A stretch of DNA of 64,000 nt from assembly GCF_009914755.1 (NCBI RefSeq), contig NC_060939.1; one strand, written 5' to 3'. The DNA is from the human T2T-CHM13v2.0 reference genome, Homo sapiens. Each line of letters opens with the position of its first letter. The first letter of the stretch is position 1. Under the pieces are notes generated by a model. It searched no databases, was not told the DNA's origin, and saw only the letters and a program-made list of their open reading frames with translations. This document shows, piece by piece, positions 9,871 through 25,483 of this stretch. The translations under genes were made by a program, and so were the position numbers.

Positions 9871-10833
9871 TGAATTTTGAAGTGAACCTGTTCTCGACAG
9901 TTTTTTTCCAGGTATTTCAGCATTATTCTCCTAGACGGGTTATAAACTCTTTAGGATAGGAACTAGACTTATTTCAGTGTCCTGCAGTTCCTAGCATGCT
10001 TCCTTGCTAGAGCTGACCTTCCTAGAGTTGACTTATTTTGACTTCATACTCTTGTCCATGACAACTGTCTGTGTGCAGGACAATATGAATAAGGATGTGA
10101 GATGCTGCCCTACCCTCGGGGAGCTGTTCTGCTAAGGTGCCCGGATTCCCTAACAGCCCTCTGCACAGCTGTAATCTCTTGTTAGATTAGTTTTCCATCC
10201 TTCATGGGAATCGTTTTTCTTCCTACGTTTCTGTTTTTAAAGTTTGCATAAAATGGAGACTTGGCTGCACACCAGGGAGGTTTAGGAGAGAAATGAGCAG
10301 TGGGACCTCCCCAGCCAAACCTGGCTGCAAACCGCTGACTGCACAGGAATACGAATGACTTCTAGTGGGATGGGCGGGGATCCTGGGGGGATGCTCTTCA
10401 TTCCTGCTTTTGATCAGGAGCTGGGCCAGCTTTGGAAATCTGAGTGTTGGCACAACTCTCAAATGGTCCTGCTGCTGTTATTGTCTGGGGTTTCTTACTG
10501 GGCGTCCACACTCAGAAAGGACCCCCTCTTTCCTGTAAGCTTGCTTCTCACTGACTGGCACAGCTTGGTGATTGGGGTGGTGGTAGAGACGTGGGCCATA
10601 CGGAACTAGGAGCATAATTTTCACAAGCACTTAAACTTGAACAGAACAAGATTAGCAATATTAACACGCATTACACTGAGATATGACGCACAGGGAAATA
10701 CCTCTAGGTACCCTTGGGATAACTGTAATGATCCATGACTTAGGATTTCCAGATCCTCCTAGCTGCTTGGACTGTGGTTCCAGGCCCAGGTCACAGAACC
10801 TTGGTTACCTAAAGGAAGAATGGCCAGGGTTGG

Positions 10834-11504
<671 letters not shown>

Positions 11505-13217
11505 GTTGGTGAGAATATGGAAGTACAGTCTAGCTATGTTCTGTTTCTTCTGTCCAATAGATGACAGAAACAGATGCCTCCATCTGTTTTCACAAACCGA
11601 GGTTGCTCTTCTTGCCACTGAGTAGAAGTTGCCTCCTCCAGCTTTGCCCCAGCCACCTGCTACTGAGAAGCCCAGCCCACTCAAGTCCTTGGTACTAAGG
11701 GCACTGCGGAGGGGTCTGGAGATAGTTTGCCATTTCCACACTCAGGGTCGGGGCATGGATTTGGCCCCTCTGGGCACCTGTGGGAGTGTAAGGGTATAAT
11801 TTCTCTAGTGACCCCATCTCATGTGGCCTGTTGCCCTCCTGGGCCCGGTTCCTACGTGTCACTCATTCTCTTACTGAAGACAAGGCTTGACCTTGCATGC
11901 AGGTCCCATTTGGAGAGGCCCCTACAAATTCATTTAGATCCTACCAGTCCCATCTCCAAAGCAGCCCCTGGTTCATGATATCCCTTAAGTGCCTCAAAAA
12001 CTATGCATAACTCTGGCTTCTGGACACCAGCTGTTCCTGGTCTTCAGTGCACATTCACTTCGGTGGCTCCCACCTGCACTGTTGGATTGTAAGACACAGC
12101 CCATGGCTCTTCTGCAGAGGAATGAAAACTACACATAGTTATACCTTGTGGGATGTTACATCTGGAATTCCAGTTGGAGAAGCTGCCCTGGGAAAGTCGG
12201 CGGCCACCAGAGAAGCAGGAACAGGAATGAAGCACAGCCTGGTGTTCCGAAGCCCAGCACGGGGCTGGGACCATGTCTGTCATAGTCCACCATGTGGAAT
12301 GGGCCCTCCACACTCTCACTAGGGGCTGTTTTTCCAAATCAGTGAATATGTATCCACTACTTTTATGGGCAAGGCCTCGTGTTAATTCATTGTAGAGGGT
12401 AGAAAAGCAATAATGTTTGGGAAGGTACGTAACTGTACTCAGTCTACGGGAGACATTAAGAAATATTAAAATCTATAGAGATGTATATGCATCCCTATAT
12501 GGGTTGTTTTCCATCCCAAAATATTAAAAGAGGATGAAGTCAAAATAAGTCAATCCTAGGAAGGGCAACTCTAGCATATATAAAAAGGCAATGGAGAAAT
12601 GTTGAGTTTAGCAAAAGACAACCTCTCTGCTGGGATGCAGAGTGGTTTGGGATGGCAGAAATGGGAAAAGTCCAGTAGATGGAGCCAGGGAGGAAGGACA
12701 TTTATCTTGTCACTAGAAGGGTGTAGTGGGAAGGTGAGAATGAATGAGGTTTTCTGACAATACCAAGTGGACCCCTCTAGGGGGCACAGAAGGAATTTGT
12801 GTTTGTAGATTGGAGGTAGGGGGTGGCCAGGGGAGGGCCAGTAACAAGTCCAGTTAAAAAGGCAGGTTGAGTCCATACTAGAGAGACCTTAGATACCAGG
12901 TTAGGCGAGATAGACTTTATCCTTCTGGTACTGAGGATCCACTGAAGCCCTTCGAGCTAAGGGGGAGACACTGATAAAAGTGGTATTGTCGGAGGGTTGC
13001 TCTGGAGGTGTGTGTTGGGTGGATGGGGTTGGGGGAAAGACTGGTGGCAGGGAGACCACCTGGGAGTCATAATAATACTGGTGATAGCTACCAATTATTG
13101 AGCATTCCCTACATGCAGGACACTGTACAATGTGATATCTGTCATATTCAATAACCTGCAAGCTGAGTACACTTGACCAATGAGGAAACTAAGGCTTATT
13201 CATGTTGAATAACCACT

Positions 13218-20859: not shown

Positions 20860-21610
<751 letters not shown>

Positions 21611-23810
21611 TACCTTTGGTGTTACAGGGAAGCCTGAGTGGGTGAGGGAAAGGCTAAGGCAGGGAATCCAGGTAAGGTCAAATCTCAATCCATTTGCAGC
21701 CTCTTTCACTCAGCAGGTGTTTGTTGAACACTTGCTGCGTGCTGTGTTCTCTGCTGGATGCTGATGCTTTCCATGAAAATGCTTTCGGCTTGCCTTTGTT
21801 AAGCGGCATGCTGAACTCAGGGGCTTTCTGGGGAGTGCTGAATATTGACCCAGATGCAGACAGCCAAGTGACCAGGCAGACTCTTCTGCTAGAAGATTGC
21901 TGTTCCCCGAATCAGCCTCTGGGTCCAGAAGCCAGCACTCTTTATTTCATGCATTACTCATTATTTTGACTGTCCTGGTTGGCTTGGGTTGCAAATAGCC
22001 ACTTGCCGTGGAGAGCATGAGGCTATCACAAAAACCACACCAGGCACTGCACAGAGACATCTGCTTCTGTTTCCTGAGTAACTGCACAGCAACACAGGGC
22101 CAAGTGGGTACCAAGGCACATGCCCTGTGTTATTTTCTAGTTATAACGAAGTACAGTTTCCATGTGGCTGGTGATGAAAGAGTCAGGTCAATTTCAGAAA
22201 GAAGAGTGTTTCCGATTATGCAGATCACATCCAAATATTTACCTCATTGCATCGTAGTTTTGGCTGGGCCCTGCTTTTAAAGATCATGGAAATCCATCCG
22301 GGCCTCCTTTGCACTGCGTTTAGGGAAGTTCTGTGCTCAGAGCCTCTTTGCTGGCAGTGGGGAGCCCTGGGTACAACCTGGGATTGCCTCTCCCTGTTGT
22401 GGTACTTGAAGCGAATCAATAAGTGGCAAGAAATGTAAGTGTGCTTCCAGGAAAAATCAGAGGCTGTTAGCACTGGAAGGGACCTCAGCCCTCATTAAGT
22501 CCAACCAGCTCAGTTTACTGATATGGAAACTGAGGTCCCGAGCCACAGACCAGCTGGCCTCAAATCACAAAGAGAGGGACGGCAGACTTGGGACCAGCCT
22601 GCAGGGTCCAGTCCAGAGCTTCCCACGAGTCCACCCTTTCCTCTTCTTTCATCTTTCTACATTTCCTGTTTGCTGTTATACCTCTTTTATTAAAAGTATA
22701 CGGTATTTCCAGTGGAATCTGCTTAGCTTACGTACCATGTGAGGGGCAGTTCTCAGTCCATGAATGTTTCCTTGTCTCGTATGAGAAATTCTGAGTTGGC
22801 CTCAACTTGAATGGCAGAAGTAGAAGGGGTGGTTCAAAATGCAGGAAATTTGAGGGTAATAAAATCATGTGGCTAGAGCATTTGGGGGCTAAGGAAGTAG
22901 CAGCCTATGAGCTCAGTTTAGCCCTTTTCTCTTTGAGTCGCCCATAGGGGTGTCCAGTGGTCAGTGATTCTCAAACCAGAGGATGCATTCAAATCACTGG
23001 GGAGCTTATTTAAAATGCATATTCCTGGGCCTTTCCCCAGAGGTTCTTATTCACTAGGTTTGGTGTAGGAACCAGGAATCTGCATTTCTCAAGTTATACG
23101 TCAGGTAGATTGTGTTGCACATTACCCCGTGGCTCTCACCTTGAGAAGCGTAGCACAGCAGCAGGAGAGATAGGGCAGGGGCATGTCCACGTGTTCAGGG
23201 TATACACTCAATAACATATACTTGGAGAAGTATGGTGCAGTTTGTGTGTCTGAGATCATTTACTGTGAGAATTCTCCAACTGGGAGGACACAGGTATTGA
23301 GAGAAAGCCTTCGGGTAGAGCTGGAAAGTGCAGAACACCAGACTCAGAACTACTTAGCTGCTGGGTGGCTGCATGTCAGTGGTGCTTTCCTCTGCATGGT
23401 TCATATTTTCTCTAAAGCGTGGCTGTCTCATTCCTCATTTATCTTGGTTTCCCTGGGCCTCTACCCACTCCTCCTTTATTTTGGTTTTGTGCAAATACAT
23501 CATTTAACTGTTCCTGAAATGCATTTGTAGAACTCATTTACATAATAATTTCTATTGGGGCAATTCTGATCCAATAATCAAGGCTGAATGTATTGTGCTC
23601 CCGTCTTCCATACTGTGAGGTTCTTACACTGATACTGCAGCTGCTGGCATTAACACGAATGCTGAAAGGTAAAATTTGGGGCCTTTTGCAATGTGTCATG
23701 TCAGAGTCTAGATAGTTGATCAAGATGTAACATTAAATCATCTGTCTCAGATGATTTATCACCATAGTGATAATACTGAATTTAGATCTGGCTGGAGTCT
23801 GGAGATTCTC

Positions 23811-24253
23811 TTTTTTTTTTTTTTTTTTGAGATGGAATTTTGTTTGCTGTTGTCGCCCAGGCTGGAGGACAATGGCACAATCTCAGCTCACTGCAACCTC
23901 CTCCTCCTTGCTTGAAATGTAAGGTTTCACTGGTTTCTAATTCTCTTTCTACAAAATAAACCTCCCATCTGTTCTTCATAGAAAACGAGTCACATGCAAA
24001 GTCTGAAATTCTAAAGTCTTGTTTCAAGTCGAAAGTCTCCTTCTTCAGGTTCAAGTGATTCTCCTGCCTCAGCCTCCCGAGTAGCTGGGATTACAAGCGT
24101 GCACCACCACGCCTGGCTAATTTTTGTATTTTTAGCAGAGACGGGGTTTCACCACGTTGGCCAGGCTAGTCTTGAACTCCCAACCTCAGGTGATCCGCCC
24201 ACCTCGGCCTCCCAAAGTGCTGGGATTACAGGCATGAGCCACCGCGCCCGGCC
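23811..24253 (-). mobile_element. AluS carrying a 138-bp foreign insertion (23908-24045)
   Basis: Alu text breaks at CTGCAACCTCCTCCTCC and resumes at CAGGTTCAAGTGATTC; TSD TGGAGATTCTCT. Confidence 0.92.
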
Positions 24254-24590
24254 ACGTTTGGAGATTCTCTATGAAGTGGTCCCACCTCCCCGAGCTCCTG
24301 CACAGGCCCCAGGTTGTCCTAGCTGAGCAGCCAGCTATATGTTCCTGCTTTCATTTGCTCTCAGGTTCCCAAAACTTTGTTCTCAGGGCTCAAACTCCAA
24401 GGTGTATTTTTGAAACGTTTGCTTTAGAGTGTTGACTTGGTTATGTGGCTAAAACTAAACCTACTTTTTCCAGTCTCTCTTAGAATGAGACTTTAGAATT
24501 TCAGACTTTGCATGTGACTCGTTTTCTATGAAGAACAGATGGGAGGTTTATTTTGTAGAAAGAGAATTAGAAACCAGTGAAACCTTACAT
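23917..24590. repeat. Perfect 103-bp inverted repeat (arms 23917-24019 and 24488-24590, 468-bp spacer)
   Basis: Base-by-base reverse-complement comparison gives 103/103 identity. Confidence 0.95.
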
Positions 24591-25483
24591 GATTTCACAT
24601 TAGTACAGAAACCAAATCCATTGAAAACATTGAGAGCTGTTCTGGTTATGAATTTACTGGTGGCGATGAGAAATTTCCAGGGTTTTCTGTGACAAGACTA
24701 TCACCAACTCTTAGTTCACTCTGTGCCTCCCACTCTCCACAATCTGCTCCAAATCTTTCTCCATTTAATCTATTTATTTTTATTTATTGAGCAAGCAATA
24801 TTGTAACCATGACTGAAATTTTTTAAATTACGAGAAAACTTATCCTGGGTCCAGCTTCAGTAGCAGATCGTATGTTTTCATTTTTCCATGTCACCTTCCA
24901 GGCTCTGTTCCTATGCTACAGAATCTTTACATTATTATAATCATGGTGTCGTTATAAGTTTATATTTGACATTTTTCAATTAATATTGTATTACAAGACT
25001 ATTTCCATATTGCTCTGTATTATTCATGATTATGATGTTTCATGGACTCATTTGACCCTCATTTATTTGACCATCCTTATATTTTGGTCATTTATGTTCA
25101 TTTCCCTTAAAAAGGCTATGATGAAGTAAACCCCATCCACAATTGCTCTGATAATTACCTCTCCTGTTCTTCTCAAAGCTCGCCTGCTGTCTCTCCTGTG
25201 AGCCTCTGATTCACTTGGCCCCATCATGTTTCATGGAGACCATGGTTCTGTAGTTACTCTGGCTGTGGTCAATTACTGCCGCTAAATGACTCTTTCTGCC
25301 CTGGGCTCGCTTAATCATGAGGCTTCTGCCAAGTCCAGACCACCTCCCTCTTCCAGCCTTTGCTCGTTCCAGGAGCTGCTTTCTGTCCTCCAAGTCCTGT
25401 GCCAAAGGCAGACCCAGTTCATTTCACATTATCTTGATTACCACATTTTATGCATATATTGTAATATTTGCAATCATTTAGAT

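What the first reader, a model, noticed from the sequence alone, without database searches (positions are those of the whole stretch)
23908..24590. Perfect inverted templated insertion inside an Alu: a repair scar that creates a 103-bp pre-mRNA stem
Seen: an AluS is broken between CTGCAACCTCCTCCTCC and CAGGTTCAAG by 138 foreign bases, with essentially no Alu sequence lost. Bases 23917-24019 are the exact reverse complement of unique sequence 24488-24590, 468 bp downstream. The junctions are patchworks. On the left, TTGCTTGAA+ATGT resembles both the donor flank (rc TGAAATC) and the reverse complement of the Alu's TTCAAG. On the right is iterated AAAGTCT-TGTTTCAAGTC-GAAAGTCT-CCTTCTT. There is no TSD or poly(A), which argues against retrotransposition. 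Established: short locally templated, often inverted insertions with iterated microhomology junctions are the signature of polymerase theta-mediated end joining or replication template switching. Inference: 100% arm identity against a diverged host Alu implies a recent, possibly polymorphic event. In THSD4 pre-mRNA it would form a perfect non-Alu 103-bp duplex (ADAR/Dicer/PKR substrate) and in DNA a cruciform- or inversion-prone site.
Basis: partly seen in the sequence, partly recalled or inferred. Interest (0 to 1): 0.8.

Follow-up and report, generated by a model that had tools for sequence, protein, structure and literature searches.

The report
Fold-back repair scar inside an Alu
An old Alu in a THSD4 intron was later split by 138 bases, most of them an exact back-to-front copy of nearby DNA, which is an unusually long but ordinary kind of DNA copying scar.

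Summary
Window 23917-24019 is the exact reverse complement of 24488-24590 (103 of 103). These are the only two copies in the whole assembly. The copy lies in a 138-nt insert (23908-24045) that splits a minus-strand Alu with no Alu base lost. The Alu's own target-site duplication is intact.

New here: the last part of the insert (24032-24044) is a second, 12-of-13 copy of the donor edge (24482-24494). This fixes the direction as donor to Alu and shows re-priming. A general "patchwork" test of the fillers was no better than shuffles. Only targeted, post hoc tests were positive.

I read it as a one-off fold-back or template-switch insertion, a known kind of mutation. It is longer (103 nt) and further from its template (441 nt) than published scans look for.

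Perfect arm identity bounds its age only to under about 14-30 My. It gives 5-10% odds of an event under 0.5 My.

The 103-bp RNA stem forms in a local fold. In a 3.4-kb fold it loses by 72 kcal/mol to pairing of the host Alu with an upstream inverted Alu.

Presence in apes or other humans, and RNA editing, could not be tested.

The parts
23797..23811 (.). Left target-site duplication of the host Alu (15 nt)
   Evidence: Direct repeat family D4, 14 of 15 identical to 24256-24270.
23812..23907 (-). Host Alu, left part: the rest of the T18 tail (23811-23828, which is the A-tail on the minus strand; its first T is counted with the duplication) plus the 3' part of the Alu body up to the break
   Evidence: Aligns column for column with 12 other window Alus. 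It is 86% complementary to the sense Alu at 21532-21589 (pair I11).
23908..23916 (.). Left filler, 9 nt. Its last 6 nt are an inverted copy of the break-proximal Alu 24050-24055. An equally good reading is that 23913-23918 copies donor flank 24592-24597 after a 3-nt skip.
   Evidence: sequences. 661 of 10000 shuffles reach a 6-nt match, so on its own this is not significant.
23917..24019 (.). Main templated tract: exact inverted copy of 24488-24590 (103 nt, 34% G+C, one CpG)
   Evidence: 103 of 103. Only these two copies exist in the genome.
24020..24031 (.). Middle piece, 12 nt. It holds a 7-nt direct copy of Alu 24050-24056 and is 7-nt complementary to the left filler.
   Evidence: 165 of 10000 and 30 of 20000 shuffles respectively, both post hoc tests. 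The whole 26-nt right filler has no other copy in the genome at up to 3 mismatches.
24032..24044 (.). Second, short inverted copy of the donor edge (donor 24482-24494), 12 of 13. It overlaps the part of the donor used by the main tract and reaches 6 nt beyond it.
   Evidence: 8 of 10000 shuffles and 5 of 2030 window tiles reach its score.
24045..24045 (.). Single unassigned T before the Alu resumes
24046..24255 (-). Host Alu, right part (the 5' two thirds of the Alu on the minus strand)
   Evidence: Alignment with 12 window Alus. Rfam Metazoa_SRP hits on the minus strand: 64.2 bits at 24136-24252 and 36.4 bits at 24024-24117, the latter running on into the insert's last bases.
24256..24270 (.). 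Right target-site duplication of the host Alu
   Evidence: family D4.
24482..24590 (.). Donor: unique intronic DNA used as template (24488-24590 once, 24482-24494 a second time)
21311..21614 (+). Upstream sense-oriented Alu. In the pre-mRNA it competes for the host Alu and so against the 103-bp stem.
   Evidence: Inverted pairs I4, I9 and I11, 85-89% complementary. Duplex energies are -121.8 and -357.5 kcal/mol with the two host halves. It takes the host Alu in the 3361-nt minimum-energy fold.

Best explanation
This is a mutational scar with no shown function.

What happened (inferred):
1. An Alu had already inserted into this THSD4 intron.
2. Later the Alu was broken between 23907 and 24046.
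3. Resection left the 3'-ended bottom strand on the right of the break single-stranded for at least about 550 nt.
4. That strand folded back on itself and was extended using its own sequence as template. It first copied 13 nt at 24482-24494 and let go. It then re-primed and copied 103 nt (24488-24590).
5. Bits of the break-proximal Alu (TTCAAG) and 1-3 unassigned bases lie between the pieces.
6. The extended end was unwound and joined to the left end without microhomology.

The product is a 138-nt insertion with no loss of Alu sequence and a perfect 103-nt inverted repeat with a 468-nt spacer.

What is shown and what is not: the anatomy, the donor-to-Alu direction and the re-use of the donor edge are shown. 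The break, the fold-back and the enzymes are inferred.

Odds:
- About 0.9 that it is a single template-switch event of this class.
- About 0.5 that it happened at a double-strand break with fold-back plus end joining. The enzymes would be of Pol theta and/or Pol delta type, as in the yeast hybrid mechanism.
- About 0.35 that it happened at a replication fork without a break.
For: - Exact 103-nt inverted copy of unique DNA 441-683 nt away, with only 2 copies in the genome.
- The insert postdates the Alu. The Alu's target-site duplication flanks both halves, and no Alu column is lost.
- A second 12-of-13 copy of the same donor edge reaches 6 nt further into the donor flank. This shows re-priming on the same template and fixes the direction of copying.
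- Three of the four assignable pieces can be read from one and the same strand right of the break: both donor copies and the left filler's 6-mer (my reading).
- 1-3 unassigned bases sit at each junction, and no microhomology is seen at the final join (sequence).
[quoted passage not shown] Stem-loop priming by Pol theta needs only two terminal base pairs (abstract of PMC11292364).
- It also fits the yeast fold-back mechanism, which uses Pol delta synthesis plus NHEJ capture. That mechanism gives inversions of 2 to about 150 bp with 0-5 bp (median 2) of microhomology at the capturing end (passages of PMC11724301).
Against: - A 103-nt tract and a 441-nt fold-back loop exceed what Pol theta alone usually makes, about 30 nt. 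They also exceed the 41-nt loop of the yeast system.
- Zero bases lost on both sides is at least as natural for a fork-based switch that returns to where it left.
- One filler piece (24023-24029) has the wrong polarity for a pure intrastrand fold-back.
- The general tiling test of the fillers was negative, and the positive filler tests were devised after seeing the matches.
- No outgroup or second haplotype was available, so the empty site is inferred from Alu alignment only.
Confidence: 0.5

Rival explanations
1. Replication-fork template switch without a double-strand break (template-switch mutation, FoSTeS or MMBIR type). A nascent strand copying the top strand leftwards stalls at 24046. 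It switches to the other arm of the fork, or to itself, at 24482/24488 and copies about 100 nt. It then returns to the original template exactly where it left.
For: - It gives the same product.
- It explains the zero loss of Alu bases.
- Tract lengths of about 100 nt and more are on record for such events: the longest was 318 bp, and 90-125 bp events occur in variant data (passages of PMC9435742).
- A T18 tract lies 79 nt from the break. Poly(dA:dT) tracts are reported near such events (introduction passage of PMC7954356).
Against: - No microhomology is visible at the return junction or at the priming sites (sequence).
- 1-3 unassigned bases at every junction suit end-joining polymerases better than a switch primed by annealing.
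- The switch distance lies beyond the 100-250 bp within which these events have been catalogued. That limit is a property of the scans, not of the biology.
Confidence: 0.35
2. Assembly or sequencing artefact: a fold-back chimera carried into the consensus.
For: Fold-back chimeras have this general shape (my own knowledge, no call).
Against: - The junctions are complex and carry a second short templated piece, unlike a simple chimera.
- The insert sits precisely in an otherwise complete Alu.
- A finished telomere-to-telomere consensus rests on many reads (my own knowledge).
- Reads were not available.
Confidence: 0.03
3. A mobile element with 103-nt terminal inverted repeats spanning 23917-24590, or a retrotransposed or captured fragment.
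For: A perfect inverted repeat at both ends of a 674-nt segment.
Against: - The segment would contain the right two thirds of an Alu whose left third and left target-site duplication lie outside it.
- There is no flanking duplication and no poly(A).
- There is no other copy in the genome.
Confidence: 0.01
4. An older inverted duplicate whose arms are kept identical by selection for a hairpin RNA or by gene conversion between the arms.
For: - 0 of 103 differences, with the CpG intact in both arms.
- The stem is strongly stable locally: -179.7 kcal/mol for the duplex and z = -16.6 for the 751-nt fold.
Against: - Zero differences is expected by chance for several million years.
- No RNA family matches the arms.
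- The stem is not in the minimum-energy fold once the partner Alu is included.
- No annotated feature lies here (the hub's gene table).
Confidence: 0.04

Closest known systems
Template-switch mutations (four-point model of Loytynoja and Goldman; great-ape and human surveys)
   Same: - One event writes an inverted copy of nearby sequence into the DNA and creates a perfect hairpin.
- Such events are mostly intronic or intergenic and are common in primate genomes. Surveys found 4017 significant events across six pairwise great-ape comparisons and 872-1121 high-quality events per person.
- They are known to create RNA hairpins and new miRNAs (abstracts).
   Different: - Catalogued events are short. 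The expected copied length is about 10 nt.
- They are searched for only within +/-100 nt or up to 250 bp.
- Here the copied tract is 103 nt, the template lies 441-683 nt away, the event is a pure insertion, and filler bases sit at both ends.
MMBIR-type templated insertions (MMB-TI; Osia et al. 2021, PMC8421209)
   Same: - Inverted insertion copied from a nearby template.
- Multi-template 'complex' forms exist.
- They occur as germline variants, about 100 per person at 25 bp or more.
   Different: By definition these are flanked by microhomology, with the template within 100 bp. Here no junction microhomology is visible and the template is 441 nt away.
Fold-back inverted insertions at double-strand breaks (yeast; PMC11724301) and Pol theta snap-back synthesis
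   Same: - One resected end folds back and is extended. [quoted passage not shown]
- Sizes run from 2 to about 150 bp.
- Pol theta mixes untemplated, cis-templated and trans-templated extension (abstract).
   Different: - In yeast most events are under 14 bp and the loop is 41 nt.
- Pol theta alone gives up to about 30 nt.
- Here the tract is 103 nt and the loop about 441 nt.
- The enzymes cannot be read from the sequence.
Intronic inverted-repeat dsRNA (ADAR substrates)
   Same: 103 contiguous pairs and a 468-nt loop resemble edited non-repetitive dsRNAs. Their medians are 144 bp in length, 30 contiguous bp and a 509-nt loop (Table 1 of PMC11838218).
   Different: - One arm is embedded in an Alu whose halves pair better with another Alu.
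- No editing data were seen.

Membership tests
Alu (7SL-derived SINE), as host of the insert | 7SL homology, dimeric body about 280-300 nt, A-rich tail, flanking target-site duplication | tested here: met
   - Rfam Metazoa_SRP hits on the minus strand.
- Column-for-column alignment with 12 window Alus.
- T18 at 23811-23828 and a 14-of-15 target-site duplication.
- The subfamily (AluS) was not tested.
Template-switch mutation (four-point model) | The copied fragment is the reverse complement of nearby sequence on the same chromosome | tested here: met
   103 of 103 inverted identity to DNA 441 nt downstream; unique in the genome.
Template-switch mutation (four-point model) | Switch points lie within the short range used to define and catalogue the class (+/-100 nt to 250 bp) | tested here: not met
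   The distances are 441 nt (24046 to 24488) and 683 nt (24590 to 23907). This is an operational limit, not a mechanistic one.
Template-switch mutation (four-point model) | The ancestral state without the event is seen in an outgroup or another haplotype | not testable with these tools
   No primate or second human assembly is held. The empty site is inferred from the alignment with other Alus.
MMBIR templated insertion (MMB-TI) | Inverted insertion of 10 bp or more, flanked by microhomology, with the template within 100 bp | tested here: not met
   - Inverted and 10 bp or more: yes.
- The template is 441 nt away.
- Junctions carry 1-3 unassigned bases and no visible microhomology.
Pol theta-mediated end joining with templated insertion | Short templated tracts (to about 30 nt) from near the break, often with repeated use of one template and untemplated bases | tested here: inconclusive
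   - Re-use of the donor edge and mixed filler fit.
- The 103-nt tract from 441 nt away does not (size statement).
- Dependence on POLQ cannot be tested.
Retrotransposition or transposon insertion of the 138 nt | Own target-site duplication, poly(A) or terminal inverted repeats, and other copies in the genome | tested here: not met
   None is present.
ADAR-type long dsRNA substrate | A long, near-perfect intramolecular duplex that actually forms in the transcript | tested here: inconclusive
   - It forms in the 751-nt fold.
- 0 of 103 pairs form in the 3361-nt minimum-energy fold, and forcing them costs 72 kcal/mol.
- These are pseudoknot-free thermodynamic models only.
ADAR-type long dsRNA substrate | A-to-I editing observed on both arms | not testable with these tools
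   No RNA-seq or editing database is held. THSD4 and chr15 were not found in the one supplement held for PMC11838218.

The most novel reading that the evidence does not exclude
The insertion is specific to the human lineage, perhaps still polymorphic, and its 103-bp perfect duplex forms in a fraction of THSD4 pre-mRNAs in competition with Alu:Alu pairing. That would give a non-Alu ADAR/Dicer substrate that alters local editing, small-RNA output or intron processing. More broadly, it would stand for a class of long-range (over 250 bp) fold-back insertions that current template-switch scans cannot see, because they search only within 100-250 bp.
Probability: 0.08. Interest if true: 0.5.

Novelty: new member of a known kind. 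Interest (0 to 1): 0.3.

Why it matters
The host Alu acts as a built-in "before" picture. It shows to the base where the DNA was opened, that nothing was lost, and what was written in. That makes this a clean natural specimen of a multi-step fold-back or template-switch insertion.

Its tract length (103 nt) and template distance (441 nt) lie outside the search ranges of the published human and ape scans, which are +/-100 nt to 250 bp. Events of this size may therefore be under-counted.

It also shows how one mutation can create a long perfect hairpin in a transcribed intron, and why local folding overstates such stems when inverted Alus lie nearby.

The mechanism class itself is known, and no function is indicated.

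Tried and rejected
- **General test of the 'patchwork' junctions.** I looked for the fewest pieces needed to tile each filler from local templates. The result was no better than shuffles: 1278 of 2000 (left) and 1592 of 2000 (right) with templates close to the break, and 1987 and 1831 of 2000 with templates over about 1.5 kb. The broad claim is rejected. Only the donor-edge re-copy and the post hoc break-proximal matches are kept.
- **A third-locus template for the 26-nt right filler.** The only match in the genome at up to 3 mismatches is the filler itself.
- **A known RNA family on the arms.** None was found. The only hits were Alu-derived SRP and mir-1268 matches within 24024-24254, all but the first few bases of which is the Alu part.
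- **Transposon with terminal inverted repeats, or retrotransposition.** Rejected.
- **Earlier findings of this scan.** One search failed on a missing argument.
- **Literature for this locus.** One search with THSD4 plus inverted repeat, RNA editing, templated insertion and structural variant listed no paper holding THSD4 among the 12 shown.
- **Supplement look-ups for THSD4 or for positions near a GRCh38 coordinate.** The coordinate (about chr15:71.20 Mb) I only recalled and extrapolated. All look-ups were blank:
  - PMC11838218.
  - PMC9435742. Eleven of its 22 files were not searched.
  - PMC7954356.
  These blanks are weak, because the coordinate is uncertain and those scans would not detect an event at this distance.
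- **Dating.** Identity of the arms gives only an upper bound.

Full report
**1. The observation**

- Window 23917-24019 is the exact reverse complement of 24488-24590, 103 of 103 positions. Identity ends abruptly at both ends.
- The repeat finder gives 112 nt at 96% because it runs on into 9 bases of which 5 match.
- A search of the whole 3.1-Gb assembly with the insert region found two places only: the insert and the donor. The sequence is therefore unique DNA, not a repeat family. A perfect 103-nt inverted match cannot be chance.
- In the whole 64-kb window, 12 inverted pairs of 40 nt or more lie within 5 kb of each other. This one reads 96% over 112 nt, which is 100% over its 103-nt core. 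The other 11 read 81-92%.

**2. The host**

- The surrounding sequence is an Alu on the minus strand.
- Rfam finds 7SL/SRP homology on the minus strand at 24024-24117 and 24136-24252.
- A run of 18 T lies at 23811-23828.
- A 15-nt direct repeat flanks the whole element, at 23797-23811 and 24256-24270, with 14 of 15 identical (family D4).
- I aligned the host with 12 other Alus taken from the window. They were the 12 of the 20 listed masked stretches that are about 300-340 nt long, and I did not check that every one is an Alu beforehand. The host shows one block of 138 extra bases (23908-24045) between ...CCTCC and CAGGTTCAAG, and no Alu column is missing.
- The Alu was therefore whole when it landed and was split later.
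- The host differs from the majority consensus of those 12 copies at 7.8% of non-CpG positions and 11.1% overall. I did not test the subfamily.

**3. Anatomy of the insert**

| Position | Length | Content |
|---|---|---|
| 23908-23916 | 9 nt | Left filler |
| 23917-24019 | 103 nt | Inverted copy of 24488-24590 |
| 24020-24031 | 12 nt | Middle piece |
| 24032-24044 | 13 nt | Second inverted copy of the donor edge (24482-24494), 12 of 13 identical |
| 24045 | 1 nt | T |

Only 8 of 10000 shuffles of the filler reach its score against the donor edge. Only 5 of 2030 63-nt tiles of the window do, counting the filler itself and the true site.
- The second copy re-uses donor bases 24488-24494 and reaches 6 nt beyond the main tract into the donor's flank. 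Two things follow. The downstream copy was the template and the Alu-borne copy the product. And the copying machinery let go and re-primed on the same template.
Shuffled fillers can be tiled from local sequence with as few pieces in 1278 of 2000 (left) and 1592 of 2000 (right) trials with templates close to the break. With templates over about 1.5 kb the counts are 1987 and 1831 of 2000.
- Narrower tests, devised after I had seen the matches, were positive:
  - The left filler holds an inverted 6-mer of the Alu 24050-24055 (661 of 10000 shuffles).
  - The middle piece holds a direct 7-mer of 24050-24056 (165 of 10000 shuffles).
  - Both together: 25 of 20000.
  - The two fillers share a complementary 7-mer (30 of 20000).
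- These narrower tests are suggestive only.
- The left filler can equally be read as a 3-nt slip along the donor, with 23913-23918 matching 24592-24597.
- The 26-nt right filler has no other copy in the genome at up to 3 mismatches.

**4. Mechanism**

The product is what results if a 3' end with the sequence of the bottom strand at 24046 is extended using the bottom strand further right as template.

*Reading at a break.*
- A double-strand break in the Alu is resected.
- The right-hand 3' tail folds back on itself. It copies 13 nt, dissociates, re-primes and copies 103 nt.
- The extended tail is then captured by the left end.

*Reading at a fork.*
- A nascent strand switches to the other arm of the fork and returns.

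*For the break reading.*
- Every junction carries 1-3 unassigned bases.
- The final join shows no microhomology (sequence).
- This matches the yeast hybrid mechanism of Pol delta fold-back synthesis followed by NHEJ capture, which gives 2 to about 150 bp with 0-5 bp (median 2) of microhomology (passages of PMC11724301).
- It also matches Pol theta's mixture of untemplated, cis-templated and trans-templated extension (abstracts of PMC4912351 and PMC11292364 as listed).

*Against a simple Pol theta event.*
- Pol theta alone is said to give up to about 30 nt.
- Here the tract is 103 nt and the loop about 441 nt.

*For the fork reading.*
- No base was lost.
- Template-switch events of about 100 nt and more are on record: the longest is 318 bp, and 90-125 bp events occur in variant data.
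- Germline inverted templated insertions drawn from up to five templates are also described.

*My odds.* About 0.9 for a single template-switch event of this class. Within that, about 0.5 for a break with fold-back and end joining, and 0.35 for a fork. The sequence alone cannot name the polymerase.

**5. Age**

- The arms are far younger than the Alu. At the Alu's own non-CpG divergence about 16 differences would be expected (my arithmetic), and none is seen.
- Yet 103 bp is too short to show recency. With 0.45-1.0e-9 substitutions per site per year (rates from my own knowledge) and one CpG per arm:
  - The chance of zero differences is still 50% at 3-7 My and 5% at 14-30 My.
  - A flat prior over 35 My gives 5-10% for under 0.5 My and 49-76% for under 6.5 My.
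- 'Possibly polymorphic' is therefore possible but not implied.
- No ape genome or second human haplotype is held here, so presence or absence could not be checked.

**6. RNA and DNA consequences**

- The site is intronic in THSD4 and on the sense strand (the hub's gene table).
- Folded alone (751 nt), the arms pair completely. The minimum free energy is -311 kcal/mol, with z = -16.6 against 20 shuffles.
- The duplex itself is worth -179.7 kcal/mol.
- The host Alu has an inverted partner 2.2 kb upstream, at 21311-21614, which is 85-89% complementary.
- Pairing of the two host halves with that partner is worth -121.8 and -357.5 kcal/mol.
- That pairing crosses the arm-arm pairing, so a nested fold cannot hold both.
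- In a 3361-nt fold the Alu:Alu pairing wins and 0 of 103 arm pairs form.
- Enforcing the arms costs 72 kcal/mol: -1260.8 against -1332.7.
- The host's right half is also transcribed before the donor arm.
- The stem is therefore plausible but not assured. This is a thermodynamic, pseudoknot-free model, and cells may differ.
- By shape it resembles edited non-repetitive dsRNAs, whose medians are 30 contiguous bp and a 509-nt loop.
- In duplex DNA, a 468-bp spacer makes cruciform extrusion unlikely. Widening an inverted-repeat spacer from 12 to 100 bp lowered recombination 300-fold in yeast, and from 12 to 200 bp lowered rearrangements about 20-fold. Distant repeats do interact once single-stranded (passages of PMC10164571).

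**7. Comparison and novelty**

- This is a new, unusually large and clean member of a known kind: template-switch, fold-back or MMBIR-type templated insertions.
- It fails the operational limits of the catalogued families:
  - Template within 100 bp for MMB-TI.
  - +/-100 nt for the great-ape scan.
  - Up to 250 bp for the human scan.
- It also lacks the flanking microhomology of MMB-TI.
- I found no mention of this locus in print. One search was run. Three supplement look-ups used a coordinate I only recalled, and only 11 of 22 files were searched.

**8. Verdict**

The class of mechanism is right. The recency, the RNA-stem certainty and the cruciform claims are overstated. No function is indicated.

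Noticed in passing
window 10005-10053 and 12528-12576: A second local inverted duplicate of unique, non-Alu DNA: 49 nt, 44 of 49 complementary, with 2474 nt between the arms and sharp edges. These are the only two copies in the whole genome. It looks like an older event of the same general kind. Its right arm lies 37 nt before the annotated silencer at 12613-12907.
   Followed up: partly
window 21311-21614 (sense Alu), aligned: This Alu is the inverted partner of the host Alu. It carries about 8 extra bases that look like a small tandem duplication (...TGAGTTCA before AGGTTCAAG). They sit at the same Alu position where the host Alu was broken. This may be coincidence or a fragile spot, and was not tested.
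   Followed up: no
window 23840-23855: The host Alu has 5 extra bases relative to the 12 other window Alus, near its tail end. This is a small separate indel.
   Followed up: no
window 23896-23907: The left edge of the break is a short all-pyrimidine CCT run (CCTCCTCCTCC), and a T18 tract lies 79 nt upstream. Either could favour stalling or bending. Poly(dA:dT) tracts are reported near template-switch events in PMC7954356. No test was done.
   Followed up: no
window 24068-24119 and 24203-24254, minus strand: There are sub-threshold Rfam matches to the mir-1268 precursor family inside the Alu: 52 and 28 bits against a gathering score of 83. This is expected for an Alu-derived miRNA family and is not evidence of a miRNA gene here.
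   Followed up: no
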